DNA of 64,000 nt from Bacteroidales bacterium (GTDB lineage Bacteria > Bacteroidota > Bacteroidia > Bacteroidales > PWNQ01), in the NCBI GenBank assembly GCA_003557725.1, contig PWNQ01000165.1, positions 690 through 64,689 on the forward strand. The letters run 5' to 3'. Positions 21,707 to 61,495 of the stretch are shown piece after piece. The notes beneath the pieces were generated by a model that did not search any database, had not been told where the DNA came from, and saw nothing but the letters and a program-made list of their open reading frames with translations. A program made the translations under genes and the position numbers. Position 1 is the stretch's first letter; each line of letters starts with the position of its first letter.

Positions 21707-21934
21707 TTTCGACACACAGGAGAATGATTATTTCCTTACCGGAAAGCTCCCGCGCTCGCCCCTCTGACTCCCCTAAAGGGGAGGACCGGGCCACCGCGCT
21801 CGCCCCTCTGACTCCCCTAAAGGGGAGGACCGGGCCACCGCACGCGCCCCTGTCCAAACCCTTGGGGGCCTGGACGAACAACGAATAAAATTCTAAACAG
21901 ATAAAACCCCATATTATTCGTGCATTCGTGGCAA
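21707..21934 (-). repeat. family-2 mosaic GC-rich repeat (copy 1) with internal 44-bp tandem duplication
   Basis: Shares ttgccacgaatgcacgaataatatg and ggcccggtcctcccctttaggggagt.agaggggcg.gcg.gggagctttccggtaaggaaataatcat with 53880-54143, in opposite orientation. The 44-bp unit gcgctcgcccctctgactcccctaaaggggaggaccgggccacc occurs at 21752-21795 and 21796-21839. Confidence 0.85.
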
Positions 21935-49636: not shown

Positions 49637-52606
49637 ATGAACATTATGACCATTAAGAAAATTTTTACAGGCGTTGCAGTGTTAGTCATTTTGGGAATGG
49701 CCTCCTGGATGACGTTTTGGAATACCAATTCCGAGGCACAGTATGAACGACGTAGCACTCGTGACTTTATGATCCCCCCCAAAGGAGCCAAGAATGCTAT
49801 TGAATATCTTTCATCTATGCAGGGCGAACGGTTAAGCCGGCATATAGATCACCGTGATGTGGTGAATGCGCGCCATCAGCTGAAAAGGAACAGAGCCAAC
49901 CCCAAGGGACTAAACCTTCAGTGGGACGAGGTGGGACCGGATAATGTGGCCGGCCGTGTACGGGGATATTGTATTGACCCCGACGACCCGGCAATAATGT
50001 ATACCGGAGGGGTATCCGGAGGATTGTGGAAAACCACCACCGGCGGCAGCTCCTGGATACAAATTATGGATGTTAGTGAAAACCTGTCCATCTCTTCTGT
50101 TGAAATGGGACCCAACGGAGAAGTGTATGCCGGAACAGGCGAAAGCTTTGCCAACGTGCTGGGAAATAATTTTTCTACCCCCGGTGTTATTGGCACGGGG
50201 ATATATAAATCCTATGATGGAGATAACTTTAGCCTGCTTTCTTCTACTGTTCCTGCGGCTGGAAACAACCCTAATGTGGACTGGGCACTGGTGAACCGGA
50301 TTGCAGTAAACCCAAATAATGGCGACCTCTGGGCGGCCACCAACCGGGGCCTGAAGTACTCCACTGATGGAGGATATAATTGGGACCACTACCCTATCCT
50401 TCCCAATGGGCAGCCCCAGATGATCAATGTCCCTGATGTGAAAATCTCACCCGGTGGCGTGCTCGTGGCCGTGATTGGTCACCACGTACATGTTAGTAAA
50501 ACCGGAAACTTAGGTGATCTTTCCAATGTGTCCACCAGTTCTACCTTGCCCACCAGTGGGATTCGCCGGACCGAAGTGGCGATATCCGATAACAATCAAA
50601 CCATATATGCCGTTATGGCTGCCTCAGATGGGTCTTTACTCAATATATATATGTCTGATGATACCGGCGATTCATGGTCGGTTGTGGGGCCCGGTGGAAG
50701 TAGTAACTTCGATGTGTTCGGCCCTAACAACCAGGGTGGATACGATAACGTAGTGGCTGTCTCTCCCTCCAATCCCTATCACGTTTTTGTGGGAGGTATT
50801 CATATGTGGGAAGGAAAGCAGGTTACGCCGGGGCAAACTTTCGCCTGGCAACGAATTACACAGGGATTTCTGGACCAGATCGGTACCCCATTCTTTGAAA
50901 ATTATGTGCATGTGGATCACCATGTGTATAAATTCCACCCCAATAAACCAAATACCATGTATGCAGGTACTGATGGTGGTATTTTCAGAACACAGGATAA
51001 GGGCAAAACATTTTCTGCCCTCAACCGGAAACTAAATATTACACAGTTCTATGCAGTGGCTATTGGTCCCCATGGCGGAGTAATGGGAGGAACGCAGGAT
51101 AATAGTACACCTTATGTGAGCGGAAAAGGAAACACCCCAATGAATGCGGATGTTTTGTTTATGGGAGATGGTGGCCATGCTGCCTTTTCAGTTATTGATC
51201 AGGACATACTGTTTGTAACCTCTCAATTTGGAGTTACCGGGAGGTCCAATGATAAAGGAGATACTTATCAGCGAGGAGAGGAGCGGGATGCTGCCGGAGA
51301 TCCTGTGCCCGGTTTTTTCTCCCAGCGTATGCTGGATGAAGGAACTGAAGCTTCTTTTGTTACACCCATTCTCTTCTGGGAGTCGGTAAACGTAGATAAT
51401 TCCCGGGACTCTGTCTGGTTCCAGGATACCACCCAGGCTTATTCGGCGGGAGATACTCTTTTGATCAGAAGCCACACCAACCGTTATCCGTTCCATCACA
51501 TCCTCAGTCAAAATCTGAACCAGGGGGAAGAGCTGCAGGTGGCCGATCCCGTACAGTCAAGGTTCTTTTTGGGTACCAATGATGCTGTATGGATGACCAG
51601 CGAGGCACTGGACTTCTCCAACACCCCCAAGTGGTTTAGAATTGCTGATATTGACGGAACGGCTCAAAGTATGGTGATCTCTCCAGATGGTGATGTGATG
51701 TATGTGGGTACCCGTGGGGGCTTTAGCGGAGCTGGAAAGGTTTATCGTATTTCCAACATTATGAGTGCCTGGGACAGTACAGCAGCCGACATAACCAGTG
51801 CGCAGCAAGTGATAGAAGTGGATATTATCCGGCAGTTTGCCTCCGGGCGCTGGGTTACTTCCATTGCCCTAGACCCCAGCGACAATGACCATATAGTGGT
51901 TACTCTGGGCAACTATGGAGAGAGTACCTATATATACCGTTCCACAGATGCCACCAGTGCAAGCCCCACCTTCCAGTCACGACAAGGGGACCTGCCTGCC
52001 ATGCCGGTATATGCGTCGCTGATCCCCATGAATCAAAGCAACACCGTGTTGATAGGTACAGAGTACGGCGTATATGCCACCTCGGATATCACAGCTCCCT
52101 CTCCTGTCTGGGCGGAAGAGAACGAAGGCATGGACAAAGTGCCGGTACACATGTTTGCACAACAAACTAAAAACCTTCCCTATATTACGGTCACTGAAGT
52201 GATCGAAGGGGAGACTTTTACTGATGTGTACCGGGGGATATCAAACTATGGCGAAATTGCTATCGGAACCCATGGCCGTGGACTGTTTTCAACCAAACAA
52301 TATGTGGGAATGGAAGAGCCACCTGTTCGCTATGCTTCCGGCAAGGATAAGCTTCAGATAAAGCTTTATCCCAACCCGGTATTTAATGATAATGCTACGG
52401 TGGAGGTGAAGCTGCAGAAACAAACCCAGGCCGTATTCCGGGTGTTTGACATGACCGGAAGGTTGATTAGTGAAGAAACCATGACTCTGGATGCCGGAAG
52501 TCAACACGTAGACTTCTCACTGGGGCAATTAAAGCGGGGAAACTATATCTTACAGATGGTTTACGATGGCAATAAGTCCGCTACCACACGTTTTATCAAG
52601 TTGTAA
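49637..52606 (+). CDS. BNR/Asp-box (sortilin/VPS10-like beta-propeller) protein with T9SS C-terminal sorting domain
   Basis: Asp-boxes STDGGYNW, SDDTGDSW and TQDKGKTF; C-terminal KLYPNPVFNDNATVEV...GNYILQMV CTD. Confidence 0.8.
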   Translation: MNIMTIKKIFTGVAVLVILGMASWMTFWNTNSEAQYERRSTRDFMIPPKGAKNAIEYLSSMQGERLSRHIDHRDVVNARHQLKRNRANPKGLNLQWDEVGPDNVAGRVRGYCIDPDDPAIMYTGGVSGGLWKTTTGGSSWIQIMDVSENLSISSVEMGPNGEVYAGTGESFANVLGNNFSTPGVIGTGIYKSYDGDNFSLLSSTVPAAGNNPNVDWALVNRIAVNPNNGDLWAATNRGLKYSTDGGYNWDHYPILPNGQPQMINVPDVKISPGGVLVAVIGHHVHVSKTGNLGDLSNVSTSSTLPTSGIRRTEVAISDNNQTIYAVMAASDGSLLNIYMSDDTGDSWSVVGPGGSSNFDVFGPNNQGGYDNVVAVSPSNPYHVFVGGIHMWEGKQVTPGQTFAWQRITQGFLDQIGTPFFENYVHVDHHVYKFHPNKPNTMYAGTDGGIFRTQDKGKTFSALNRKLNITQFYAVAIGPHGGVMGGTQDNSTPYVSGKGNTPMNADVLFMGDGGHAAFSVIDQDILFVTSQFGVTGRSNDKGDTYQRGEERDAAGDPVPGFFSQRMLDEGTEASFVTPILFWESVNVDNSRDSVWFQDTTQAYSAGDTLLIRSHTNRYPFHHILSQNLNQGEELQVADPVQSRFFLGTNDAVWMTSEALDFSNTPKWFRIADIDGTAQSMVISPDGDVMYVGTRGGFSGAGKVYRISNIMSAWDSTAADITSAQQVIEVDIIRQFASGRWVTSIALDPSDNDHIVVTLGNYGESTYIYRSTDATSASPTFQSRQGDLPAMPVYASLIPMNQSNTVLIGTEYGVYATSDITAPSPVWAEENEGMDKVPVHMFAQQTKNLPYITVTEVIEGETFTDVYRGISNYGEIAIGTHGRGLFSTKQYVGMEEPPVRYASGKDKLQIKLYPNPVFNDNATVEVKLQKQTQAVFRVFDMTGRLISEETMTLDAGSQHVDFSLGQLKRGNYILQMVYDGNKSATTRFIKL

Positions 52607-52689: not shown

Positions 52690-53283
52690 ATGAGACTGCA
52701 ATCCCATCAGCGCCAACAGCAGGTTCGAAGGTCGTCTGTGCTCAGGACCTTCCGGAAAGCACACCGGTATACAGGGGCCATGCTGTTTGTTTTTTTCTTT
52801 ATCATGTCTGTAACCGGTGTGCTTCTGGCCTGGAAAAAAAATAGCGCAGGCTATATTCTGCCGGTGACACAAATGGGTACCACGTCTCAACTCCAGCTGT
52901 GGATGCCTTTGGATAGCCTGCACCAGAAAGCAATGACCGTTTTGCGTGATTCCATCTCCCCGGAGCTTTCCACAGACCTGAACCGGATAGATATACGAAA
53001 GCAGCGAGGAACGGTAAAGTTTATCTTCTCCCGTCATTATTATGAAATCCAGTTGGATGGAGCCACCGGGGAGGTGCTCCAGATAGCCCACCGGAACTCG
53101 GACATTATTGAGGGCTTGCACGACGGTACATTCCTGGATGACTTGCTGGGAACCCAGGGGGAACCGGTTAAACTGGTTTACTCTACCCTTATGGGGCTTG
53201 CGCTCTTGCTTTTTACTGTAACGGGGTTTTACTTGTGGTATGCGGGCCGGCGCCGCAGGCGAAAATCTGCCCGTCGGCATTAA
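52690..53283 (+). CDS. PepSY-domain membrane protein
   Basis: 197 aa. TM helix, periplasmic PepSY-like core, TM helix and a basic tail (RRRRRKSARRH). Confidence 0.6.
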   Translation: MRLQSHQRQQQVRRSSVLRTFRKAHRYTGAMLFVFFFIMSVTGVLLAWKKNSAGYILPVTQMGTTSQLQLWMPLDSLHQKAMTVLRDSISPELSTDLNRIDIRKQRGTVKFIFSRHYYEIQLDGATGEVLQIAHRNSDIIEGLHDGTFLDDLLGTQGEPVKLVYSTLMGLALLLFTVTGFYLWYAGRRRRRKSARRH

Positions 53284-53840
53284 TGGGACTTGTGGAATTC
53301 AGCACCCAGGTCTATTAGATTTTCCTGAACCATTTCCCTGATGATGGGTTTTACTTTCAGATGACCCAGAGGGACGCCACCCAATGCCTCCACTGCTTCG
53401 ACGGAGTCCAGAGAAAAAAGGCCCTGACGGGTCTGGTGCTGGTATAGAAAGTGCACCTGTGCATTCCGCCCGGCCAGAGTGGCCACTACCCCCGGAATAT
53501 CTCCTCCCGGGGGGCGGTCCAGATGGGTATGAACAAACGACGCTCCAATACAGGTGCCCTTTCCAGGGACTGAAAATATGTGAAAGGTGCCTCCGGAAGA
53601 TATGGCGGATTGCCTGAATAGCGGAATGCCCAGTCCTACTTTCCGGGTGGTGCGGGTAGTGAAAAACGGATCGGAAACGTTGTGTATGGTCTCCCTGTTC
53701 ATCCCCCTGCCATTATCAAGGATTGATAGGGTATATAAGTCTTTGGATAGGCACTCGGTGATGCGAACGGAAACTTTGCTGGATCCTGCATCAAAGGAAT
53801 TTTCTGCTATATCTAACAAATGGTGGGCTAATGTTTTCAT
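53280..53840 (-). CDS. GHKL (HATPase_c) ATP-binding protein, hydrogenase-locus associated
   Basis: The ATG at 53838-53840 gives MKTLAHHLLDIAENSFDAGS (N box), DNGRGM (G1) and GLGIPLF...GKGT (G2). There is no HisKA/DHp domain. Confidence 0.75.
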   Translation of the reverse strand: MKTLAHHLLDIAENSFDAGSSKVSVRITECLSKDLYTLSILDNGRGMNRETIHNVSDPFFTTRTTRKVGLGIPLFRQSAISSGGTFHIFSVPGKGTCIGASFVHTHLDRPPGGDIPGVVATLAGRNAQVHFLYQHQTRQGLFSLDSVEAVEALGGVPLGHLKVKPIIREMVQENLIDLGAEFHKSH

Positions 53841-53879
53841 GTGTTTAATTTTTGCTCCTTGTTCCTTGTTTGGCGTTTG

Positions 53880-54143
53880 TTGCCACGAATGCACGAATAA
53901 TATGCTACTCCTCACATCCCACGCATCACACCCAAACGCTCCGCGCCACACACCAAACCCAAATCCCTATGCCCCATGCCCCCGGCCCCTAAAGGGGAGG
54001 GCCATCGCGCATGGTTGCCTCACCAACGTTTCTTCACCGCAAGCTGCCGCGGGTTGGCCCGGTCCTCCCCTTTAGGGGAGTTAGAGGGGCGCGCGTGGGA
54101 GCTTTCCGGTAAGGAAATAATCATCCCCCTGTGTGTCAAAAGC
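53880..54143 (+). repeat. family-2 mosaic GC-rich repeat (copy 2)
   Basis: See 21707-21934. Contains the palindrome ctcccctttaggggag and an upstream inverted partner cccctaaaggggagg. Confidence 0.85.
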
Positions 54144-54284
54144 TTTGTTCCCGAATTCTCGGGACCTGCGGCATGGGTGTTTCATTTTAATCACATTTAA
54201 TATCCTTTTATATTTGATATTATGTGTTTTACGGATGATTATCAGTTTCGGGTTTCGGGTGGGTATTGCTTAATATTTTGAGGG

Positions 54285-55022
54285 CTATGTGATTATTGGT
54301 TTTCTGTCATTCAAGCAGTTAAGGCATTTTTTCACTTCTTCAAAACTTCTGTGGTGCATTTTTAACAGGGTATAAGCTGCACCAACATCCTGGGGTTGAT
54401 GTGCGTCGGATGAACGGATAAATGATTTATTTTTCAAATGGGGCTGTTTTTTCCAAAGGGATTGAGCGGGAGTGTGCCGGCACATCTCCAGGGCGTCAAA
54501 GGGCAGGTCCTGGGGGATGAATCCCAGTTGGCTCATAATGCTGAACATGGGTCGGTCAATGTGTGCCGGAATAAATATGCCCTTCATTTGAGCTACTGTA
54601 GCTTGAATTTGGCTAATGCTTTGGTTCAAAGCTCCATGGAGGGAGTGAGGCACCAGTCTCAATATTTGTGCGTCCTGGTCAACCAGTGGCTGATGGCCCA
54701 GTTTTTCCGGGTTATTGGGAGTTTTCATTATATATTTATCGATGTAGTTCTGCAGGGCTTTGATATTTTCGTGACTTACAAGGCATAAGCAATGCACTTC
54801 TTCAACGGATGTAATTTCTGCACCGTTGATCACGAAGATGCCGTATGCTTTTGCCATTTCCCTGATCACAGGGGCCTGCAAAGTACTGTTATGGTCTGTG
54901 ATACCTATAATGTCCAATCCCTTTTCGGCTGCTGCTTCCAGCAGATTTCGGGGGCTCATGTCCAGGCTGCCGCAAGGAGATAATGCAGTATGAATGTGTA
55001 GATCGGCACGGTAGAGGTTCAT
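54285..55022 (-). CDS. PHP-domain metal-dependent phosphoesterase
   Basis: MNLYRADLHIHTALSPCG...DIIGITDHNS...PAHIDRP...SSDAH motifs; ATGA overlap with the upstream gene. Confidence 0.8.
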   Translation of the reverse strand: MNLYRADLHIHTALSPCGSLDMSPRNLLEAAAEKGLDIIGITDHNSTLQAPVIREMAKAYGIFVINGAEITSVEEVHCLCLVSHENIKALQNYIDKYIMKTPNNPEKLGHQPLVDQDAQILRLVPHSLHGALNQSISQIQATVAQMKGIFIPAHIDRPMFSIMSQLGFIPQDLPFDALEMCRHTPAQSLWKKQPHLKNKSFIRSSDAHQPQDVGAAYTLLKMHHRSFEEVKKCLNCLNDRKPIIT

Positions 55023-55357
55023 GAGCTGTTTAGCAGGTTATGCAGCCGGCCGGATATTTCGAAAGCACTTAGTGTTGTACCCACTATGGGGATCTGCTCC
55101 TGGTTGCTGTATTGCTGTGTATCCTCAAGGGGCTGCAGGTTATTTACCAGAATAACTGCGGATAGGTCTTTCAGGGATGCAATAGCCATTACGTTTTTAT
55201 GGGTTTGCAGGGTGATCCAGGCCATTCCCTCACTGGCATTTCCCATCACATCGCTTAGAAGGTCTGAGGTATATCCGCCGTTTACGGGTTTGTCCAGGCC
55301 ATCACTGCCTGAATAAACGGTTAGATTCAACGCTTTTACCACATCTTTTACGGTCAT
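55019..55357 (-). CDS. DRTGG-domain protein (copy 2)
   Basis: 112 aa. ...GYTSDLLSDVMGN...ITLQTHKNVMAIA... is paralogous to 57145-57519. Confidence 0.7.
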   Translation of the reverse strand: MTVKDVVKALNLTVYSGSDGLDKPVNGGYTSDLLSDVMGNASEGMAWITLQTHKNVMAIASLKDLSAVILVNNLQPLEDTQQYSNQEQIPIVGTTLSAFEISGRLHNLLNSS

Positions 55358-55359
55358 AA

Positions 55360-56709
55360 TTATCTGTTTTTGTCTAGCTTGGGTTTTCCCCAGATGTCCC
55401 TGAGGATATCCAGTGATTCGTTTTTATCCATCATATCTTTTTGTTCCAGTCGCTTTTGAATAAAAATACATTGCCTGATGCTGGCTTTTCCCTGTACCAC
55501 ATCCTTGGCCAGGGCATGGCACGACGGGGCTCCGCACACTGTACAGTCTACCCTTGGCAGCCGCTCCATGGTGCTTTGTATTTGTTTCATCTTCCGGATT
55601 GCACTGGACACGTCGTTGTCTAAAATGAGCATGGATCTGGGCTCTACCGGGTTGGTGGATATTTGCTTCATAAGGTCTTTTTGGTACCTTAGAATGTCTT
55701 TAACATTGTTTATTGGTGCCTTAGCGGCTCGTTTTCTCAGCCGTTCTGCTGTTAAAAACCGGTTGCCTCCGGTTAATACCCCTCCGGCACAACTTTCATC
55801 GCATGAGCGCAGCTCCAGGAAGTCAATATTTGCAATTTCATCATTTTCCACCCGCTCCAGGAAGGCCGTTACGTTGTTGATGCCATCAATGGCCAGGCTT
55901 CTGTTGGCCACATGCTCCTTTTCTCCGTTGGTTAGGCTCCAGAGGATGTCCATAGAAGATAGTTGCTGGCGGTCGGGGATGGCACAAAAGTCATCTTTTT
56001 TCTGCCGGATCAGCGTATACACTTTATTATATAAGAAATCCATATTGATCACCCCGTTGATACAGGAGGCTTCTTCGCCCACCGGGCTTTTTACGGCTGC
56101 AATCTTTGCAGCACATGGGGTAACATAAAAGATGCCCACGTCCTTATCATAAACCCCCTGGTCTTTCAATTTGCGCAGATAGTAGGCGGCACTCACATCC
56201 AGTGGGGGCTTAACGGGGAGTATATGGGGCACTAATGAAGGGAACTTTACCTGAATAAGGCGCACAATGGCAGGGCAAAAAGCGGAGATGGCCGGGGTAG
56301 CAACCTTTCCGCTGTTCAGGGTTTGCTGTTGCTTTTTAAATACCAGATCAACAGCACTTTCTGCCTCATAGATATGGGTAAACCCCAGGTGCATTAAACT
56401 GCTGTGGATCTCTTCGGTGGTGATATCTTCAGGAAACTGCCCGGTAAATACAGCCGGAATAATGGCCACACGATATTTGTAGTTTCGGGTCTGACTAAAG
56501 TCATCCTGCTCAATGATAATGGCATTTACCGGACAATGCCGGAAACATTCTCCGCAATCTATGCAGTGGTTTGCCTCCAGCCTGGCCTTGCCCCCCTGCA
56601 CCCTGAGGGCTTCCGTAGGGCACACACGCATGCAATTGGCACAGCCTATACAAAGATCGGTGTCGATCTTTAACGCATGATGAAAGGCATCTTTTTTCAT
56701 ATGGGCCAT
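55360..56709 (-). CDS. [FeFe]-hydrogenase-like (H-cluster domain) Fe-S protein, putative sensor
   Basis: Two CxxCxxCxxxCP ferredoxin motifs; Fe-hydrogenase large-subunit-like core with divergent motifs SAFCPAIV / VTPCAAK / RSCDESCAGG; C-terminal CTVCGAPSC...C Fe-S motif. Confidence 0.75.
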   Translation of the reverse strand: MAHMKKDAFHHALKIDTDLCIGCANCMRVCPTEALRVQGGKARLEANHCIDCGECFRHCPVNAIIIEQDDFSQTRNYKYRVAIIPAVFTGQFPEDITTEEIHSSLMHLGFTHIYEAESAVDLVFKKQQQTLNSGKVATPAISAFCPAIVRLIQVKFPSLVPHILPVKPPLDVSAAYYLRKLKDQGVYDKDVGIFYVTPCAAKIAAVKSPVGEEASCINGVINMDFLYNKVYTLIRQKKDDFCAIPDRQQLSSMDILWSLTNGEKEHVANRSLAIDGINNVTAFLERVENDEIANIDFLELRSCDESCAGGVLTGGNRFLTAERLRKRAAKAPINNVKDILRYQKDLMKQISTNPVEPRSMLILDNDVSSAIRKMKQIQSTMERLPRVDCTVCGAPSCHALAKDVVQGKASIRQCIFIQKRLEQKDMMDKNESLDILRDIWGKPKLDKNR

Positions 56710-57141
56710 TTAGGTGTTTTGGTGGTCCTTTTTAATATAACAAATAATCTCTACCTGTGTTCCCTTCCCCGGAGTACTTGAGATATTCAGTTCGTCGGCA
56801 TGGGCTTTTATATTGGGCAACCCCATTCCTGCTCCAAAGCCCATTTCCCTGATTTTCTCCGTTGCGGTGGAAAACCCGGCCTGCATGGCCTGGTCGATAT
56901 CCTTTATGCCCGGTCCCCGGTCTGTAAACAGAATGCGAATGCGCTTTTCACTTACATCCACCTCTGCAGTCCCATGATAGGCATGTACCACAATGTTTAC
57001 TTCCCCCTCATACATGGCCACAACTACCCGTTTGATCAGCTTTATATCCAGGTTTAGCTGCTTAAGCATCCGCTTCACCTCACTGGAGGCAAAGCCCGCC
57101 TTGCTGAAGTTGCCTCCTTCTATGTCGTATTGGGTTTTCAA
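56710..57141 (-). CDS. RsbW/SpoIIAB-like GHKL ATPase (anti-sigma-type Ser/Thr kinase fold)
   Basis: 143 aa. GGNFSKAGFASSEVKRMLKQL..., DRGPGI and GFGAGMGLPN...GKGT motifs. Apparent TTG start 3 nt after the preceding stop; its own stop abuts the next ATG. Confidence 0.75.
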   Translation of the reverse strand: MKTQYDIEGGNFSKAGFASSEVKRMLKQLNLDIKLIKRVVVAMYEGEVNIVVHAYHGTAEVDVSEKRIRILFTDRGPGIKDIDQAMQAGFSTATEKIREMGFGAGMGLPNIKAHADELNISSTPGKGTQVEIICYIKKDHQNT

Positions 57142-57144
57142 TGG

Positions 57145-57519
57145 TTAAAAGATTGGTTTAATGCCCGATTCATAAAGCAATCCACTGATTTTATACAGGG
57201 AAAAGGGGCTTTCAATTACGGTAACCTGGCACTGGGTGGCCAGTTCTACTATTTCCCGGCTGCATTTTTTGTTGCGGCCAATAATTATGCAAAGGATGTC
57301 CGACATTTCTGCCGTACGTACCACCTGTGGATTGGTAAGGCCTGTGACCAGTACCGTTTCACAAGCATCTATGGTGAGTACATCGCTCATCAGGTCGGAA
57401 GTGAAGGCCGTCTTCACGGCCACATTGTTATGGGGTCCCGGGTTTACAATGTTTCCCGAGACAATGCCGGAAAGGGTCTTGATGGTTACTCCCTCCTGGG
57501 TTATGGTCTGCTGTTTCAT
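57145..57519 (-). CDS. DRTGG-domain protein (copy 1)
   Basis: 124 aa. TSDLMSDVL...VLVTGLTNPQVVRTAEM...IIIGRNKK matches the remembered DRTGG proteins of hydrogenase loci. Confidence 0.75.
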   Translation of the reverse strand: MKQQTITQEGVTIKTLSGIVSGNIVNPGPHNNVAVKTAFTSDLMSDVLTIDACETVLVTGLTNPQVVRTAEMSDILCIIIGRNKKCSREIVELATQCQVTVIESPFSLYKISGLLYESGIKPIF

Positions 57520-57602: not shown

Positions 57603-57610
57603 CAAAAATA
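57603..57610 (-). promoter_or_regulatory. candidate -7 promoter box for the DRTGG-GHKL-sensor-DRTGG-PHP operon
   Basis: The reverse strand reads TATTTTTG, 84 nt upstream of the ATG at 57519. Confidence 0.3.
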
Positions 57611-57683: not shown

Positions 57684-57714
57684 AAAGAGAGGCGGCGCAA
57701 AGCCACCTCTCTTT
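57684..57714 (-). terminator. hairpin terminator after hydA
   Basis: aaagagaggcgg-cgcaaag-ccacctctcttt (one mismatch), followed by a U-rich tract on the coding strand. Confidence 0.45.
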
Positions 57715-57723
57715 GGGTATTTA

Positions 57724-59514
57724 CTAATATCGCTCCCTTTTCACATACTTGGTGTGAAGCAGTTCGTGCGATTTATGACTGAGTGGTTCACCCAGAAAGT
57801 CCTGATAAATTTTGGTAACGTCCGGATTTTCGTGGGATTTTCTGATGGGCATAGCCATATCTTCCTCGTAAATGGCTTTAGTCCGTTGGTCACGGATCTT
57901 TTGGCTGGTGGGGATGGGCTGTCCGCCGCCTCCCAGGCATCCACCGGGGCAAGCCATAATTTCGATAAAGTGGTAATTTGCTTTACCATCTTTCACTGAC
58001 TGCATCAGTTTTTTAGCGTTGGTCAGGCCATGAGCAATGGCGCATCTCAGTTCCACTCCGTCAAGGAATTTCCAGGCTTCCACCGGGTTTTCGATTTTCA
58101 CAACCGCTTCCTTCACTCCTTCCATTCCCCTGACGGGCATGATATTGAGGTTTTCAAAGGGCACTTCACGGCCGGTAACCAGTTCGTAGGCGGTGCGCAA
58201 TGCGGCTTCCATTACTCCTCCTGTGGCTCCAAATATGGTAGCTGCACCGGTGGAGTCACCCATCAGGCTATCGAACTTCTGGTCATCCATTTCCATAAAC
58301 TCCAGGCCGGCTTGTTTAATCATTATGGCCAGTTCTCGTGTAGTGAGCACATGGTCCACATCCTTATAGCCACTGTCTCTCATTTCGGGGCGGTCGGCCT
58401 CGAACTTCTTGGCGGTACAGGGCATTATAGATACGGATACAATGTCTTTGGGGTCCAGGTTACGCTGTTGGGCGTAATAGGTTTTGGCCAGAGAGCCAAA
58501 CATTTGCTGGGGAGATTTGCAGGTAGACAAGTTTTCCAGGAAGTCGGGGAAGATATGCTCTGAAAACTTGATCCATCCTGGCGAGCAGGAGGTCATCATG
58601 GGCAGACGGATGGACGTGTCTTCGTCCACCAGTGCTTTTTTCAGGCGGGTAAGCAATTCGGTTCCTTCTTCCATAATGGTCAGGTCGGCGGTAAACTGGG
58701 TGTCCAGCACCGAGTCGAATCCCAGCCGTTTCAAAGCGGACACCATTTTTCCGGTGACACGCGATCCTGCGTGGAAACCCAGCTCTTCGCCAAGTCCTAC
58801 ACGCACAGCCGGTGCGGTTTGTACCACTACATGTTTGGATTTGTCGTAGATGGCCTCCCATACTTCATCGATATTGTTCACTTCAATGAGCGCACCGGTG
58901 GGGCAGCGGTTGATACATTGCCCGCAGTTGGTACACACCACATCGTGCATGGGTTTTTCAAAGAAGCTGGATATCTTCATCTTACCTCCCTTGTTGGCTA
59001 CAGCCAGGGCACTGACGGCCTGCAGGTTTTCACAGGTACGTACACAGCGTTGGCAGCGGATACACTTGCTGTCGTCTTTCATAATGGATGGTGACGACTG
59101 GTCAATGGTGTAGTTTTTCTCCGGTACCAGGTCCAGGAACATTTCGTTACCGGTACGGTACTGGTTGGCCATGCTTTGAAGTTCGCAGTTGTTGTTTCTG
59201 TAGCACTTGGTACAGTCTGCATTGTGTTCTGACAGCAGCAGTTCGATGATGTGCTTTCTGGAACGGCGCACCTCCATGGTGTTGGTGTGGATTTTCATCC
59301 CTTCGTGTACCGGCATGGCACAGGCCGCCACCAGCCCTTTGGCGCCTTCCTGTTGTACAATGCATACCCGGCAGTTTCCTGCCACACAAAGGTCTTCATG
59401 GTGACACAGTGTGGGTATTTTTATCTTTGCCTTACGTGAAGCATCCAGGATGGTTTTTCCTTCTTCAATGCTCACATCAATGCCATCGATATTTAAATTG
59501 ATCATATTTGCCAT
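57724..59514 (-). CDS. hydA: [FeFe]-hydrogenase catalytic subunit (multimeric NuoG-like HydA type)
   Basis: 596 aa. N-terminal 2Fe-2S, His-ligated 4Fe-4S (HNADCTKCYRNNNC), two ferredoxin 4Fe-4S motifs, H-cluster motifs TSCSPGW / MPCTAKKFE / EIMACPGGCLGGGGQP, and a small-subunit-like tail. Confidence 0.9.
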   Translation of the reverse strand: MANMINLNIDGIDVSIEEGKTILDASRKAKIKIPTLCHHEDLCVAGNCRVCIVQQEGAKGLVAACAMPVHEGMKIHTNTMEVRRSRKHIIELLLSEHNADCTKCYRNNNCELQSMANQYRTGNEMFLDLVPEKNYTIDQSSPSIMKDDSKCIRCQRCVRTCENLQAVSALAVANKGGKMKISSFFEKPMHDVVCTNCGQCINRCPTGALIEVNNIDEVWEAIYDKSKHVVVQTAPAVRVGLGEELGFHAGSRVTGKMVSALKRLGFDSVLDTQFTADLTIMEEGTELLTRLKKALVDEDTSIRLPMMTSCSPGWIKFSEHIFPDFLENLSTCKSPQQMFGSLAKTYYAQQRNLDPKDIVSVSIMPCTAKKFEADRPEMRDSGYKDVDHVLTTRELAIMIKQAGLEFMEMDDQKFDSLMGDSTGAATIFGATGGVMEAALRTAYELVTGREVPFENLNIMPVRGMEGVKEAVVKIENPVEAWKFLDGVELRCAIAHGLTNAKKLMQSVKDGKANYHFIEIMACPGGCLGGGGQPIPTSQKIRDQRTKAIYEEDMAMPIRKSHENPDVTKIYQDFLGEPLSHKSHELLHTKYVKRERY

Positions 59515-59549
59515 TTTTCTGATTTTTTGTGGTTCAACAAAGTGGTTGA

Positions 59550-60716
59550 TTAGTAAATCATTTCTTCCCTAAAGTTATCCACGATAGAGGAGAATGAGTT
59601 GGCTACCGATTGTCCCAGGCCACATTTGGATGTGAGTTTCATGGTTTGGCTCAGCTTAAGCAATTCATCCAGGTAGTCAATGGATTTATCGCCTCGTTTC
59701 ACGGCTTCCACGCCCAGCAGTAGTTGCTGGCATCCCACCCGGCAGGGTGTACATTGCCCGCATGATTCTTCCTCAAAGAATTCCAGGTAGTTGTGAATAA
59801 CGTTAAACATGGACCGGGAGCTGTTGAATACCATCATAGACCCTCCGGTAGGTACGCCTTCAAAACCGATCACTGTATCTTTAAACTTTTTTCGGGGCAC
59901 ACAGAATCCGGCTGCGCCTCCCACCTGTACGGCTTTGGTGTCGCCATCGCCAAATTCATCCACGAAATCCTGCAGGGGCATGCCCAGCTCCAGCTCATAG
60001 ATGCCCGCAATGGGGGTGTCTCCGGAAACGGAAAACACTTTCGAGCCACGGGAGTCATCGGTGCCCAGTTCTTTGAACTTTTCTGAACCCAAACGGCATA
60101 TCATAAAGGCGTATACCAGGGTCTCCACATTGTTGATTACCGTTGGCTTGCCCTTATAACCGCTCACGGTGGGGTAGGGGGGCTTGTTTCTGGGCTCTCC
60201 CCGCTTGCCTTCCATAGACTCAAACAAGGCGCTTTCTTCACCACAAATATAGGCTCCTGCTCCGGTAACAATATGTATGCGGAAGTCAAAATCCAATGCA
60301 TCCAGGGTCTTATGAAATTCATCCAGGTGCTTTTGTAAGTCGTTGAGCAGGAATTTATATTCTCCGCGAAGGTAAATGTATCCTTCTTTGGCTCCAATAA
60401 CTTTGGCCCCAACGGCCATTCCGCCAAACACCTTGTAAGGTACCTTGAATAAAATCTCCCGGTCTTTGAATGTCCCCGGCTCGCCTTCATCGGCATTGCA
60501 TATGATAAAGCGCTCATCGCCTTTTTCCTGTGCGGTGAACTTCCACTTCATACCGGTGGGAAAGCCTGCACCACCACGGCCGCGAAGACCTGAGTTCAAA
60601 AGCTCATCTACGATCTTCTCGTTATCCATCTTCAGCGCATCGGAAAGGATCTCCTTAAAACCGCATTCCTCGCTGAATATGATATCTACTCTTTTTAACT
60701 GTTTATTTTCTGCCAT
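59550..60716 (-). CDS. hydB: NuoF-like flavoprotein subunit of NAD(P)H-linked hydrogenase
   Basis: 388 aa. GLRGRGGAGFPTG (NADH), GAGAYICGEE (FMN), CGQCTPCR...CGLG (N3 cluster). GGAGGT lies 4 nt upstream of the ATG. Confidence 0.9.
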   Translation of the reverse strand: MAENKQLKRVDIIFSEECGFKEILSDALKMDNEKIVDELLNSGLRGRGGAGFPTGMKWKFTAQEKGDERFIICNADEGEPGTFKDREILFKVPYKVFGGMAVGAKVIGAKEGYIYLRGEYKFLLNDLQKHLDEFHKTLDALDFDFRIHIVTGAGAYICGEESALFESMEGKRGEPRNKPPYPTVSGYKGKPTVINNVETLVYAFMICRLGSEKFKELGTDDSRGSKVFSVSGDTPIAGIYELELGMPLQDFVDEFGDGDTKAVQVGGAAGFCVPRKKFKDTVIGFEGVPTGGSMMVFNSSRSMFNVIHNYLEFFEEESCGQCTPCRVGCQQLLLGVEAVKRGDKSIDYLDELLKLSQTMKLTSKCGLGQSVANSFSSIVDNFREEMIY

Positions 60717-60729
60717 ATTGACCTCCGTT

Positions 60730-61197
60730 TTAGCTATGGTGCTTAATATCAGTAATTATTTCCTTAACCTTCTCCGGTGTCAGGTCCGTATAGGCATTGT
60801 CATTTATCAGCATAACCGGACCCTTATGGCACCAACCCAAACAGTTGGTCTCCAAAAGTGTGAACTTCTTGTCCGCACTGGTATCGCCTATATTAACCTT
60901 TAACAGGTTCTCAAGCGTCTTGATAATTTGACGCTTGCCTTTCATGTCGCAGGTGATGGTGCGACAAACACGGATCACATACTTTCCCCGTGGAACTGTG
61001 TCCAAAAAGGAATAGAATGATGCTGTTCCGTAAACCTGAGCCGCCGACAAATCCAATTGCCGGGCAATTTCTGTGATGGCTTCATCACTCAGGTACCTCT
61101 CCTGGTCTACTACACCTTGAAGGATGGCCATTAAATTGGTTCGTTCCGAACCATGAGCATCCACAAGCTGTTTTACCATTTCTTGTGTATCAGACAT
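60730..61197 (-). CDS. hydC: NuoE-like thioredoxin-fold 2Fe-2S subunit
   Basis: 155 aa. VCRTITCDMKG...CLGWCHKGPVMLIND. GGAGGT lies 5 nt upstream of the ATG. Confidence 0.88.
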   Translation of the reverse strand: MSDTQEMVKQLVDAHGSERTNLMAILQGVVDQERYLSDEAITEIARQLDLSAAQVYGTASFYSFLDTVPRGKYVIRVCRTITCDMKGKRQIIKTLENLLKVNIGDTSADKKFTLLETNCLGWCHKGPVMLINDNAYTDLTPEKVKEIITDIKHHS

Positions 61198-61265: not shown

Positions 61266-61273
61266 CAAAGATA
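61266..61273 (-). promoter_or_regulatory. candidate -7 promoter box for hydCBA
   Basis: The reverse strand reads TATCTTTG (TAnnTTTG), 69 nt upstream of the hydC ATG. Confidence 0.3.
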
Positions 61274-61342: not shown

Positions 61343-61495
61343 TGAGTCCGGTCTGGATACACACATTTTTCACATCCGCTGAAAATCAGCACCGCTTTAT
61401 AGATGGGGCAAAGCTGATTTTCAGCGGCTTCACCCTTTAGGGCCCCGGGGCAAAAAGCCAATGAAAATCGAAAGTAACCTTTTAGACCGGACTCA
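61343..61495 (-). mobile_element. family-1 MITE-like element, intact long form (153 bp)
   Basis: TIRs tgagtccggtct.../...agaccggactca; perfect 4-bp flanking duplication AGAA (61339-61342 and 61496-61499). Carries an ~82-bp internal module with the hairpin gctgaaaatcag...ctgattttcagc. Confidence 0.85.

What the first reader, a model, noticed from the sequence alone, without database searches (positions are those of the whole stretch)
53280..57519. Uncharacterised sensor/regulator-like module fused to the hydrogenase locus: DRTGG - GHKL ATPase - H-cluster-like protein - DRTGG - PHP, plus a second GHKL ATPase
Directly downstream of hydCBA lies a five-gene minus-strand unit with almost no intergenic space. 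It runs DRTGG (57519-57145), then a GHKL ATPase whose apparent TTG start is 3 nt after the preceding stop, then an H-cluster-domain protein whose ATG abuts that gene's stop, then a second DRTGG after 2 nt, then a PHP phosphoesterase with an ATGA overlap. A second stand-alone GHKL ATPase (53840-53280) follows after a repeat insertion. The unit has its own candidate promoter and operator sites, and a hairpin separates it from hydA. None of the six proteins has a recognisable DNA-binding, receiver, HisKA or sigma-factor domain, so the output is unclear. From memory, similar gene sets sit beside HydABC in Thermotogae and Firmicutes with no experimentally assigned function. My inference is that this is an H2/redox-sensing kinase/phosphatase (partner-switch-like) system controlling the hydrogenase or electron flow. 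It is the most system-like unexplained gene set in the window.
Basis: partly seen in the sequence, partly recalled or inferred. Interest (0 to 1): 0.78.

Follow-up and report, generated by a model that had tools for sequence, protein, structure and literature searches.

The report
Putative hydrogen-sensor gene cassette beside hydrogenase
This is a typical Bacteroidales copy of a widespread six-gene cassette built around a "group D" putative hydrogen-sensing [FeFe] hydrogenase; the sensor class is already known, but how it signals is not, and natural gene fusions found here name its neighbours as the likely partners.

Summary
On the minus strand, downstream of hydCBA, lie DRTGG-1, a SpoIIAB-like GHKL ATPase, a 449-aa H-cluster protein, DRTGG-2, a PHP phosphoesterase and, after a REP-like insertion, a second GHKL ATPase.

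The H-cluster protein is not an unknown. It is a full-length homologue (37% identity, E 6e-99) of TamHydS, the only characterised "group D / M2e" putative sensory [FeFe] hydrogenase, and it has every sequence hallmark of that group.

The gene order is kept in 70 of 80 Bacteroidota loci; the other 10 are cut by contig ends. Thermoanaerobacter and Caldicellulosiruptor bescii have the same order, with hydC inserted before GHKL-2.

Natural fusions exist: GHKL1::HydS, DRT1::HydS and HydS::DRT2. They argue that these proteins act together, with DRTGG where group C sensors carry PAS. I found no paper linking DRTGG to these hydrogenases.

A kinase/phosphatase switch driven by H2 is plausible but unproven:
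- There is no STAS partner, sigma factor or DNA-binding output.
- The PHP protein is closest to EndoQ-type and nucleotide phosphoesterases, not to protein phosphatases.

Verdict: a new member of a known but functionally unresolved kind. Interest is moderate, because the fusions make the open partner question testable.

The parts
57684..57714 (-). Stem-loop between the hydA stop and the cassette; candidate terminator or attenuator
   Evidence: 13-bp stem, -22.7 kcal/mol, z -5.04, 0 of 200 shuffles fold as well. It is followed by a U-rich but interrupted tract.
57603..57610 (-). Candidate Bacteroidota -7 promoter element (TATTTTTG), 84 nt upstream of the DRTGG-1 ATG
   Evidence: one of only three minus-strand TAnnTTTG matches between 53 and 61.7 kb; another lies upstream of hydC. 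The motif is short, so this is a candidate only.
57145..57519 (-). DRTGG-1 (124 aa), a stand-alone DRTGG-fold protein with an invariant D42-x-x-S45 motif and T59
   Evidence: In other lineages this paralogue is fused to the N-terminus of HydS (P0187 and P0196).
56710..57141 (-). GHKL-1 (143 aa), a SpoIIAB/RsbW-like single-domain GHKL ATPase with intact N, G1 and G2 boxes
   Evidence: HATPase_c_2. TIGR01925, 71 bits; the best PDB match is SpoIIAB (1L0O); invariant E45/N49/H53, D74xGxG78 and GFGAGMGLPN. Fused to HydS in P0157.
55360..56709 (-). HydS-like group D (M2e) [FeFe] hydrogenase (449 aa): two N-terminal [4Fe-4S] motifs, an H-domain, and a C-terminal Cx2Cx4Cx16C cluster motif
   Evidence: 37% identity to TamHydS over 417 aa, E 6e-99. 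(residue mapping); all top 50 fold matches are [FeFe] hydrogenases.
55019..55357 (-). DRTGG-2 (112 aa), a DRTGG-fold protein; in seven representative clusters it is fused to the HydS C-terminus, where group C enzymes carry PAS
   Evidence: model and fold match. (fusions and their context).
54285..55022 (-). PHP-family metal-dependent phosphoesterase (245 aa) with a complete set of metal ligands
   Evidence: PHP 42.5 bits, plus PHP_C; invariant H9, H11, D43/H44, E69, H77, H154, D206, H208; the profile is closest to Endonuclease Q (E 1.6e-16).
53841..54284 (.). Non-coding insertion with REP-like palindromes (53984-54000 and 54064-54080) that splits PHP from GHKL-2
   Evidence: the same 17-mer occurs at 21768 and 21812, against 0.02 expected. 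PHP and GHKL-2 abut in most relatives; the fold is not better than shuffles (z -1.4).
53280..53840 (-). GHKL-2 (186 aa): a histidine-kinase-type catalytic ATP-binding domain without a DHp/HisKA domain, plus a conserved ~80-aa C-terminal region of unknown fold
   Evidence: residues 1-105 match the CA domains of KinB, WalK and ZraS. It is kept intact in lineages that have lost the downstream hydrogenase.
57724..61197 (-). Context: hydC (60730-61197), a short hydB (59550-60716, 388 aa) and hydA (57724-59514), a separate upstream transcription unit
   Evidence: HydA scores 883 bits on NCBIfam FeFe_hydrog_A6; the gap between hydA and DRTGG-1 is 100-340 nt in most relatives.

Best explanation
Identity. 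The locus is a Bacteroidales copy of the conserved accessory cassette of a group D (M2e, HydS-type) putative sensory [FeFe] hydrogenase.

What is shown:
- The 449-aa protein has all the sequence hallmarks of that group.
- DRTGG-1, GHKL-1, HydS, DRTGG-2, PHP and GHKL-2 are inherited together, in fixed order, next to NADH-linked HydABC hydrogenases in two phyla.
- In other lineages GHKL-1, DRTGG-1 or DRTGG-2 is fused to HydS.

Inferred mechanism:
1. HydS binds an H-cluster and reports H2 (or the H2/ferredoxin redox balance) through a conformational change, as reported for TamHydS.
2. The change passes to DRTGG-2, which docks at the C-terminal cluster domain in the place PAS occupies in group C, and to DRTGG-1 and GHKL-1 at the N-terminal side.
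3. GHKL-1 uses ATP either to phosphorylate a partner or to switch partners. The invariant Asp-x-x-Ser of the DRTGG proteins is the best candidate target.
4. The PHP esterase resets the state.
5. Because no DNA-binding output exists, the output is most likely post-translational control of the adjacent hydrogenase(s) or electron flow. It may run through GHKL-2, which in most genomes directly precedes a small 2Fe-2S ferredoxin gene and hydB in the bifurcating-type operon.

Confidence by part: about 0.9 for the identity, about 0.7 for a physical HydS-GHKL-DRTGG complex, and about 0.35 for phosphorylation of DRTGG with PHP as the phosphatase.
For: Group D identity:
- 37% identity to TamHydS over 417 aa, E 6e-99 (the TamHydS sequence came from the supplement of PMC6984386).
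- Cx2Cx4Cx16C at C389, C392, C397 and C414.
- H-cluster cysteines C145, C199, C303 and C307.
- F144 replaces the proton-relay Cys, and T197 replaces Met353. These are the features listed for M2e in PMC8163306.
- The TamHydS proton-path residues S249, E252, D265 and E289 map to the invariant T260, E263, D275 and E299.
- No PAS domain.

Conservation:
- 70 of 80 Bacteroidota loci keep all six genes in order.
- Thermoanaerobacter (a protein 94% identical to TamHydS) and C. bescii keep the same relative order, with hydC between PHP and GHKL-2, followed by a ferredoxin gene, HydB and HydA.

Physical coupling:
- 10 of the 150 best representative clusters are fusions that respect paralogue and order: 1 GHKL1::HydS, 2 DRT1::HydS and 7 HydS::DRT2.
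- Several fusions are seen in multiple independent assemblies, and two of the three inspected keep the usual gene order.

ATP use and candidate sites:
- GHKL-1 and GHKL-2 keep their ATP-binding boxes.
- An Asp-x-x-Ser pair and a Thr are the only residues invariant in the 11-sequence alignment, and all three persist in 18 DRTGG sequences of both paralogues, free or fused.
- The PHP metal ligands are invariant.

Autonomy of the unit:
- GHKL-2 and the rest stay intact where the downstream hydrogenase is lost (window, L001, L002, L041, L065).
- The whole set occurs without any adjacent hydABC in L085.

Literature: TamHydS has low turnover, high H2 affinity and an H2-induced structural change, and its partners are unknown (PMC8163306, PMC13104023).
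Against: - No experiment on any accessory protein was found in the searchable literature.
- GHKL-1 scores far below the SpoIIAB equivalog cut-off (71 against 135 bits).
- The locus has no STAS protein, PP2C phosphatase or sigma factor.
- DRTGG domains are not known kinase substrates. By my own recollection of the 3L2B/3L31 paper (not checked here), the DRTGG domain of the CBS-pyrophosphatase mediates dimerisation.
- The nearest solved relatives of the PHP protein are a nuclease and nucleotide esterases.
- L083 lacks both PHP and DRTGG-1, so these two are not essential to the core.
- The 2026 TamHydS study found that the C-terminal cluster is not reduced by H2. This removes the simplest redox-relay route to whatever docks there.
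- The output target is entirely inferred.
Confidence: 0.55

Rival explanations
1. Nucleotide-gated regulatory subunits rather than a phospho-relay. HydS, the two DRTGG proteins and the GHKL ATPases form a stable accessory complex. It tunes hydrogenase activity allosterically according to ATP/ADP (energy charge) and H2, with no protein phosphorylation. DRTGG acts as a dimerisation or adaptor module.
For: - The fusions show physical association only, not phosphotransfer.
- The DRTGG fold matches regulatory or adaptor domains of HPr kinase and the CBS-pyrophosphatase.
- GHKL-2 is a bare CA domain with no DHp/His acceptor.
- There is no STAS or receiver domain.
Against: - GHKL-1's best matches are a true Ser kinase family.
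- A conserved phosphoesterase with a complete metal site travels with the set in most lineages. That is easier to explain if something is phosphorylated or a phosphoester ligand is made.
Confidence: 0.2
2. The PHP protein acts on a nucleotide or nucleic acid, not on a protein. It could hydrolyse a small phosphoester signal such as pAp or a cyclic or linear dinucleotide, or trim RNA. The cassette would then couple H2 sensing to a nucleotide signal or to mRNA stability.
For: - The profile search places it nearest to Endonuclease Q (E 1.6e-16), TM0559, RNase AM (7UG9) and a pAp phosphatase (2YB1). No PHP-type protein phosphatase appears at E <= 0.01.
- The best NCBIfam hits are the PHP modules of TrlF and Ppl proteins.
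Against: - No nucleotide cyclase or synthase, and no RNA-binding partner, is encoded in the cassette.
- Similarity to EndoQ covers the PHP core only, and the EndoQ zinc-finger region is not matched.
- PHP substrate specificity is poorly predicted from sequence.
Confidence: 0.12
3. A maturation, repair or quality-control device. The GHKL ATPases would act as Hsp90/MutL-like clamps and, with the esterase, assist assembly or oxygen-damage repair of the H-cluster or Fe-S clusters. HydS would be a scaffold or low-activity hydrogenase, not a sensor.
For: - The GHKL superfamily includes ATP-driven chaperones, and GHKL-2 also hits HATPase_c_3 and MutL models.
- The cassette sits inside or next to hydrogenase operons.
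Against: - Both GHKL proteins are closest to kinases, not to Hsp90 or MutL.
- TamHydS itself incorporates an H-cluster and turns over H2 (PMC8163306).
- In L085 the cassette is not next to any catalytic hydrogenase.
- From my own knowledge, the known maturases are HydE, HydF and HydG, and the cassette proteins resemble none of them.
Confidence: 0.08

Closest known systems
TamHydS (Thermoanaerobacter mathranii), group D / M2e putative sensory [FeFe] hydrogenase
   Same: Same domain plan, with homology along the full length (37% identity). It shares the same C-terminal Cx2Cx4Cx16C motif, the loss of the proton-relay Cys, Ser/Thr at the Met353 position, and the conserved alternative proton-path residues. 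The flanking genes keep the same relative order in a Thermoanaerobacter locus whose HydS is 94% identical to TamHydS.
   Different: - Phe, not Ala, sits at the C299 position.
- Several charged residues highlighted in TamHydS differ: R32 to Q38, E392 to K402, D403 to Q413.
- The host is Bacteroidales.
- The downstream bifurcating-type HydB/HydA/HydC and the small 2Fe-2S ferredoxin gene are missing here.
- The only neighbouring hydrogenase has a short HydB.
Group C (M2f) PAS-containing HydS systems (T. maritima HydS, R. albus HydS, T. saccharolyticum hfsB)
   Same: An H-cluster sensor with the same N-terminal and C-terminal cluster domains, encoded beside HydABC. These systems have been proposed to signal through adjacent Ser/Thr kinases and phosphatases (PMC5707799, PMC3561251). 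Genetic evidence for a regulatory role exists for hfsB.
   Different: There is no PAS domain. A separate or fused DRTGG domain occupies the PAS position. The phosphoesterase is PHP, where HydDB describes a class of group C sensors as serine/threonine-phosphatase-linked. I could not retrieve group C loci here to compare their neighbours.
SpoIIAB-SpoIIAA-SpoIIE / RsbW-RsbV-RsbU partner-switching modules
   Same: A small single-domain GHKL protein whose best family and structure matches are SpoIIAB. It is encoded with small alpha/beta partner proteins and a phosphoesterase.
   Different: There is no STAS partner, no PP2C phosphatase and no sigma factor. The partners have a DRTGG fold, and the score is below the family cut-off.
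Regulatory [NiFe] hydrogenase HoxBC with HoxJ/HoxA (Ralstonia/Cupriavidus)
   Same: In concept, a low-activity hydrogenase that acts as an H2 sensor and is coupled to a GHKL-type kinase.
   Different: The metal site and proteins are unrelated. HoxJ is a complete PAS-HisKA-CA histidine kinase with a response-regulator output, and none of those parts is present here.
HPr kinase/phosphorylase and CBS-DRTGG pyrophosphatase regulatory regions
   Same: The DRTGG fold of the two small proteins (1KO7, 3L2B).
   Different: Here the domain stands alone or is fused to a hydrogenase. It carries a family-specific invariant Asp-x-x-Ser motif that precedes the position of the canonical DRTGG motif.

Membership tests
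Group D (M2e) [FeFe] hydrogenase | Two N-terminal [4Fe-4S] ferredoxin motifs | tested here: met
   C20/C23/C26/C30 and C49/C52/C55/C59 are invariant in A1. Fer4 families were found.
Group D (M2e) [FeFe] hydrogenase | H-domain with the four H-cluster-ligating cysteines | tested here: met
   Fe_hyd_lg_C scores 81 bits. C145 (FCP), C199 (TPC), and C303 and C307 (SCDESC) are invariant. All top 50 fold matches are [FeFe] hydrogenases (the model is only moderate, pLDDT 68).
Group D (M2e) [FeFe] hydrogenase | Proton-relay Cys (CpI C299) absent, and Met353 replaced by Ser/Thr | tested here: met
   F144 and T197. TamHydS has Ala and Ser at these positions.
Group D (M2e) [FeFe] hydrogenase | C-terminal Cx2Cx4Cx16C cluster motif with no PAS domain after it | tested here: met
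   C389, C392, C397 and C414, with PF04060 at 44 bits. No PAS hit.
Group D (M2e) [FeFe] hydrogenase | Full-length homology to the characterised member TamHydS | tested here: met
   BLASTP gives 37% identity over 417 aa, E 6e-99.
Group D (M2e) [FeFe] hydrogenase | Placement inside the group D clade in a phylogeny that includes groups A-G | not tested
   No group C, E, F or G reference sequences could be fetched, so no tree was built.
Group D (M2e) [FeFe] hydrogenase | Binds an H-cluster and reacts with H2 with sensor-like kinetics | not testable with these tools
   This needs expression, artificial maturation, and FTIR/EPR or electrochemistry.
SpoIIAB/RsbW anti-sigma Ser kinases | Bergerat ATP-binding fold with N, G1 and G2 boxes | tested here: met
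   E45/N49/H53, D74xGxG78 and GFGAGMGLPN are invariant. HATPase_c_2 scores 41.5 bits.
SpoIIAB/RsbW anti-sigma Ser kinases | Scores above the curated family cut-off | tested here: not met
   TIGR01925 scores 71 bits against a cut-off of 135, and RsbW 33 against 145.
SpoIIAB/RsbW anti-sigma Ser kinases | Cognate STAS-domain antagonist and sigma factor | tested here: not met
   No STAS or sigma domain occurs in the six proteins. DRTGG-2 has a DRTGG fold, and no STAS structure is among its matches.
DRTGG domain (PF07085) | Pfam model above the gathering score | tested here: not met
   20.3 and 18.9 bits against 25.2 for the window proteins. Many orthologues, and the fused versions, do pass.
DRTGG domain (PF07085) | DRTGG three-dimensional fold | tested here: met
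   The DRTGG-2 model (pLDDT 96.7) matches 2IOJ (TMq 0.79), 3L2B and the 1KO7 N-terminal domain. DRTGG-1 was not modelled; it is a paralogue.
PHP phosphoesterases (PF02811) | Family model above cut-off, with a complete set of His/Asp/Glu metal ligands | tested here: met
   42.5 bits against 26.4. H9, H11, D43, H44, E69, H77, H154, D206 and H208 are invariant across phyla.
PHP-type protein phosphatases (CpsB/YwqE) | Detectable similarity to the solved protein tyrosine phosphatases of the PHP fold | tested here: not met
   The profile search of the PDB at E <= 0.01 returns EndoQ, 3E0F, TM0559, RNase AM, a pAp phosphatase, PolC and YcdX, but no CpsB or YwqE.
Two-component sensor histidine kinases | DHp/HisKA domain with a phospho-accepting His next to the CA domain | tested here: not met
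   GHKL-2 matches CA domains only, over residues 1-105. No HisKA appears in Pfam or NCBIfam.

The most novel reading that the evidence does not exclude
The cassette is a distinct kind of hydrogen-responsive signalling device. In it, DRTGG domains rather than PAS couple an H-cluster sensor to a SpoIIAB-like GHKL kinase. The invariant Asp-x-x-Ser of the DRTGG proteins is the phospho-switch, a PHP esterase resets it, and the output is direct post-translational control of NADH-linked hydrogenases or electron flow, with no transcription factor. That would be the first signalling role for the DRTGG domain and the first signal path for group D [FeFe] hydrogenases.
Probability: 0.3. Interest if true: 0.75.

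Novelty: new member of a known kind. Interest (0 to 1): 0.5.

Why it matters
Group D [FeFe] hydrogenases are common in fermenting anaerobes. This search found more than 3,800 relatives at E <= 1e-10 and 314 representative clusters at E <= 1e-30. A 2024 survey still lists the group as functionally undefined, and the 2026 TamHydS study says that identifying the interaction partners is the critical missing step.

The window itself is an ordinary member. The comparison it prompted gives a concrete, testable list of partners: GHKL-1, DRTGG-1 and DRTGG-2 are each found fused to HydS somewhere. It also gives a candidate switch residue and shows that PHP and DRTGG-1 are dispensable in at least one lineage.

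Knowing how cells sense H2 and throttle bifurcating hydrogenases bears on interspecies hydrogen transfer, on rumen and gut fermentation balance, and on engineering ethanol or H2 yields in thermophiles.

Tried and rejected
Literature:
- I checked whether the cassette is the hfsABCD system of Thermoanaerobacterium. That system is described as PAS-containing and homologous to group C hydS, so it is not the same module.
- I looked for the T. maritima TM1420-1423 genes. One table lists TM1420-1422 as group C, and no detail was available.
- Searches for 'DRTGG' with 'hydrogenase', and for locus tags of the C. bescii and C. thermocellum neighbours, gave nothing relevant.
- Zheng et al. 2014 on R. albus HydS is not held.

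Sequence features:
- A Rex operator search found no site in the hydrogenase region, and the total was not above chance.
- The sigma-70 promoter and terminator scans were at or below chance and did not report the post-hydA hairpin.
- The 260-nt insertion between PHP and GHKL-2 does not fold better than shuffles (z -1.4).
- Other conserved neighbours in the 80 loci were mostly antisense shadow ORFs, or housekeeping genes (truA-like, msrB-like, DUF456). None was a transcription factor except rex.

Structure and family tests:
- The idea that the DRTGG proteins are STAS-like was rejected by the fold search.
- The idea that PHP resembles CpsB/YwqE protein phosphatases was not supported.
- The HydS AlphaFold model from 19 sequences was only moderate (pLDDT 68, N-terminal 67 residues unreliable). 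It was used only to confirm the H-domain fold.

Not attempted: complex prediction, because only window proteins and search hits, one chain at a time, can be submitted.

Full report
**What is in the sequence**

The minus strand between 61197 and 53280 carries these genes:
- hydC (60730-61197), hydB (59550-60716) and hydA (57724-59514).
- A 204-nt spacer.
- DRTGG-1 (57145-57519), GHKL-1 (56710-57141), a 449-aa H-cluster protein (55360-56709), DRTGG-2 (55019-55357) and a PHP protein (54285-55022).
- A 444-nt non-coding stretch.
- GHKL-2 (53280-53840).

The TTG start of GHKL-1 and the ATG start of GHKL-2 both fit the N-termini of orthologues.

Pfam recovers these domains above cut-off:
- HATPase_c_2 and HATPase_c.
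- Fe_hyd_lg_C with two Fer4 motifs and the PF04060 'putative Fe-S cluster' domain.
- PHP and PHP_C.

The two DRTGG hits are below the cut-off. An AlphaFold2 model of DRTGG-2 (pLDDT 96.7) nevertheless superposes on the DRTGG protein AF1212 (TMq 0.79), on the DRTGG domain of the CBS-pyrophosphatase, and on the N-terminal domain of HPr kinase.

None of the six proteins has a DNA-binding, receiver, HisKA, STAS, PP2C or sigma domain.

A 13-bp hairpin follows hydA (57684-57714, z -5.0). A Bacteroidota-type -7 element lies 84 nt upstream of DRTGG-1. The cassette is therefore probably its own transcription unit. No operator could be identified.

**What the central protein is**

The 449-aa protein is not an orphan. 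The literature describes a class of [FeFe] hydrogenases called M2e or group D. It is probably what HydDB lists as 'C1, histidine kinase-linked (putative)'. Its published features are:
- two N-terminal [4Fe-4S] motifs and an H-domain;
- a C-terminal Cx2Cx4Cx16C motif, with no PAS domain;
- loss of the proton-relay cysteine;
- Ser/Thr in place of Met353;
- a position upstream of bifurcating HydABC genes (PMC8163306, PMC13104023, PMC3561251, PMC5037454).

The window protein has every one of these:
- N-terminal cluster cysteines C20/23/26/30 and C49/52/55/59.
- H-cluster cysteines C145, C199, C303 and C307.
- F144 and T197.
- C-terminal cysteines C389/392/397/414.

I took the sequence of the one characterised member, TamHydS, from the supplement of PMC6984386. 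The window protein aligns to it over 417 residues at 37% identity, E 6e-99.

The four residues proposed as TamHydS's alternative proton path (S249, E252, D265, E289) correspond to T260, E263, D275 and E299. All four are invariant in the Bacteroidota family. The supplement text was machine-read and has small numbering slips, which I corrected against positions named in the papers.

No group C or group D structure is solved. A moderate model of the window protein matches only [FeFe] hydrogenases. I did not build a phylogeny, so clade placement rests on these diagnostic features.

**How conserved the gene set is**

A scan of one genome per species returned 80 loci, all but one titled as Bacteroidota.
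- In 70 of them all six families are present in the order DRT1-GHKL1-HydS-DRT2-PHP-GHKL2. The other 10 are cut by contig ends.
- In most loci PHP and GHKL-2 abut.
- In most loci GHKL-2 is followed by a small thioredoxin-like 2Fe-2S ferredoxin gene, a full-length HydB (about 600 aa), HydA and HydC.
- A separate hydCBA with a short HydB (about 390 aa) often lies upstream, behind a 100-340-nt gap.
- 34 loci have both hydrogenases, 17 only the downstream one, and 12 only the upstream one.

The window, like L001, L002, L041 and L065, has lost or never had the downstream set, yet keeps GHKL-2 intact. GHKL-2 therefore belongs to the cassette rather than being just the first gene of the hydrogenase operon.

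In the window a REP-like palindrome, also found at 21.8 kb, has been inserted between PHP and GHKL-2. In Labilibaculum filiforme a 23S-rRNA-IVS protein gene sits at the same junction.

Outside Bacteroidota, two Bacillota loci show DRTGG-GHKL-HydS-DRTGG-PHP-HydC-GHKL-ferredoxin-HydB-HydA. One is a Thermoanaerobacter locus whose HydS is 94% identical to TamHydS. The other is the C. bescii locus around Athe_1292.

**Evidence that the proteins work together**

An exhaustive search of 1.84 billion representatives found 314 clusters at E <= 1e-30. Ten of the 150 best are longer than usual. Pfam and family-specific HMMs show these to be fusions:
- one GHKL-1::HydS;
- two DRTGG-1::HydS;
- seven HydS::DRTGG-2.

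The fused domain is always the paralogue that the neighbouring gene encodes in the window, on the side it occupies there. Several fusions recur in independent assemblies, including a cultured isolate and contigs of 0.1-1.5 Mb.

Their contexts were as follows:
- L084 reads DRT1-GHKL1-(HydS::DRT2)-PHP-HydC-GHKL2-ferredoxin-HydB....
- L083 reads (GHKL1::HydS)-DRT2-HydC-GHKL2-ferredoxin-HydB-HydA. It has no PHP and no DRT1.
- L085 carries GHKL1, a DRT2-type protein, PHP, GHKL2, (DRT1::HydS) and the ferredoxin between V-ATPase and glycogen genes. No hydABC is nearby.

These are classic Rosetta-stone arguments for a physical complex of HydS with GHKL-1 and the DRTGG proteins. The C-terminal DRTGG occupies the position that PAS holds in group C enzymes. 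Two full-text searches for DRTGG together with hydrogenases found no mention of this. Subscription-only papers were not searchable.

**How it most likely works**

Shown:
- Both GHKL proteins keep complete ATP-binding boxes.
- GHKL-1's best family and structure matches are the Ser kinase SpoIIAB.
- GHKL-2 is a histidine-kinase-type CA domain with an extra ~80-residue conserved tail and no DHp domain.
- The PHP protein keeps all metal ligands.
- In the 11-sequence alignment of both DRTGG paralogues the only invariant residues are an Asp-x-x-Ser pair and one Thr. All three persist across 18 free or fused DRTGG sequences of both paralogues, from Bacteroidota, Bacillota and unclassified metagenome proteins. 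In the window they are DRT1 D42, S45 and T59, and DRT2 D32, S35 and T49.
- In the model the Asp-x-x-Ser sits where a strand runs into a helix.

Inferred:
- HydS reports H2 through a conformational change, as reported for TamHydS.
- The change reaches the docked DRTGG proteins and GHKL-1.
- ATP-dependent phosphorylation or partner exchange follows, with the DRTGG serine as the best candidate site.
- PHP resets the state.
- With no DNA-binding output, the target is post-translational, most simply the neighbouring hydrogenase or its electron partners, perhaps through GHKL-2.

I put about 0.9 on the identity, about 0.7 on a HydS-GHKL-DRTGG complex, and about 0.35 on the phospho-switch in this specific form.

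**What speaks against the kinase/phosphatase reading**

- GHKL-1 is far below the SpoIIAB equivalog cut-off.
- There is no STAS or PP2C protein.
- DRTGG domains have no known history as kinase substrates.
- The closest solved relatives of the PHP protein are Endonuclease Q, TM0559, RNase AM and a pAp phosphatase, not the PHP-fold protein phosphatases.
- One lineage does without PHP and DRT1 (L083).
[quoted passage not shown] Any relay to a C-terminal partner must therefore be conformational.

The rivals are therefore an allosteric, nucleotide-gated accessory complex without phosphotransfer; a PHP enzyme that acts on a nucleotide or RNA; and, least likely, a maturation or repair device.

**Transcription-level control in relatives**

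Nine Bacteroidota loci carry a rex gene (CoA_binding plus Put_DNA-bind_N) between hydA and DRTGG-1. The window has neither rex at this position nor a Rex box in the hydrogenase region. No other transcription factor is conserved next to the cassette.

**Verdict**

- It is a hydrogen-linked regulatory-looking cassette, syntenic with NuoE/NuoF-type hydrogenases.
- Its core belongs to a named class with a characterised member.
- The partner-switch mechanism remains a hypothesis.

The window's copy is an ordinary member, notable only for lacking the downstream bifurcating-type hydrogenase and for a REP-like insertion. The value lies in the comparative result. The accessory proteins are fixed companions of group D hydrogenases and are sometimes fused to them, which turns the published open question 'who are the partners?' into a short list of experiments.

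Noticed in passing
window 21768-21784, 21812-21828, 53984-54000, 54064-80: The 17-nt palindromic motif CTCCCCTAAAGGGGAGG occurs four times (one copy with two mismatches), against 0.02 expected. It looks like a dispersed REP/MITE-like element, and one pair forms the insertion that separates PHP from GHKL-2.
   Followed up: partly
window 59550-60716 (hydB): HydB is only 388 aa. It lacks the N-terminal 2Fe-2S domain and the C-terminal 2x[4Fe-4S] ferredoxin domain found in the ~600-aa HydB of the downstream operon in relatives. NCBIfam calls the partner HydA 'NADH-dependent, group A6'. This hydrogenase may therefore be non-bifurcating (my inference from general knowledge, not tested).
   Followed up: partly
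window 61376-61427: A strong 15+4-bp hairpin (-29.3 kcal/mol, z -4.5) lies about 180 nt upstream of the hydC start, ahead of a candidate -7 promoter motif at 61266-61273. Its role (terminator of an upstream unit, or a regulatory element) is unknown.
   Followed up: no
L034, L037, L039, L042, L055, L057, L058, L071, L079 (between hydA and DRTGG-1): A rex-type redox repressor gene (CoA_binding plus Put_DNA-bind_N) sits 200-290 nt upstream of DRTGG-1 in nine Bacteroidota relatives. It is absent from the window, which also has no Rex box in the hydrogenase region.
   Followed up: partly
L064 12613-12981 (Labilibaculum filiforme): A gene for a 23S rRNA intervening-sequence protein is inserted at the PHP|GHKL-2 junction, the same junction that carries the REP-like insertion in the window. 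This junction seems to tolerate insertions.
   Followed up: no
L085 5941-9955 (GCA_020558355.1): All cassette families occur in a shuffled order (GHKL1, DRT2-type, PHP, GHKL2, DRT1::HydS, 2Fe-2S ferredoxin) between V-type ATPase and glycogen-metabolism genes. No hydABC is nearby, so the cassette can exist apart from a catalytic hydrogenase.
   Followed up: partly
L083 11928-14960: In the lineage with the GHKL1::HydS fusion, the HydB-like subunit is a 1010-aa fusion of the NuoF-like module with a Pyr_redox_2 (GltD-like) module. This lineage lacks PHP and DRTGG-1.
   Followed up: no
window 52690-53283 (+) and 49637-52606 (+): A PepSY_TM membrane protein gene converges on GHKL-2 with a 4-nt overlap of the gene ends, exactly where relatives carry the ferredoxin-hydB-hydA-hydC genes. 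Upstream of it is a 989-aa protein whose C-terminal tail looks like a type IX secretion sorting signal (not verified).
   Followed up: no
GHKL-2, window 53280-53520 (C-terminal ~80 aa): The conserved C-terminal region of GHKL-2 (motif H-[IL]-D-R-x-P-x-G-D) matches no Pfam family and no solved structure by sequence, so its function is unknown.
   Followed up: partly
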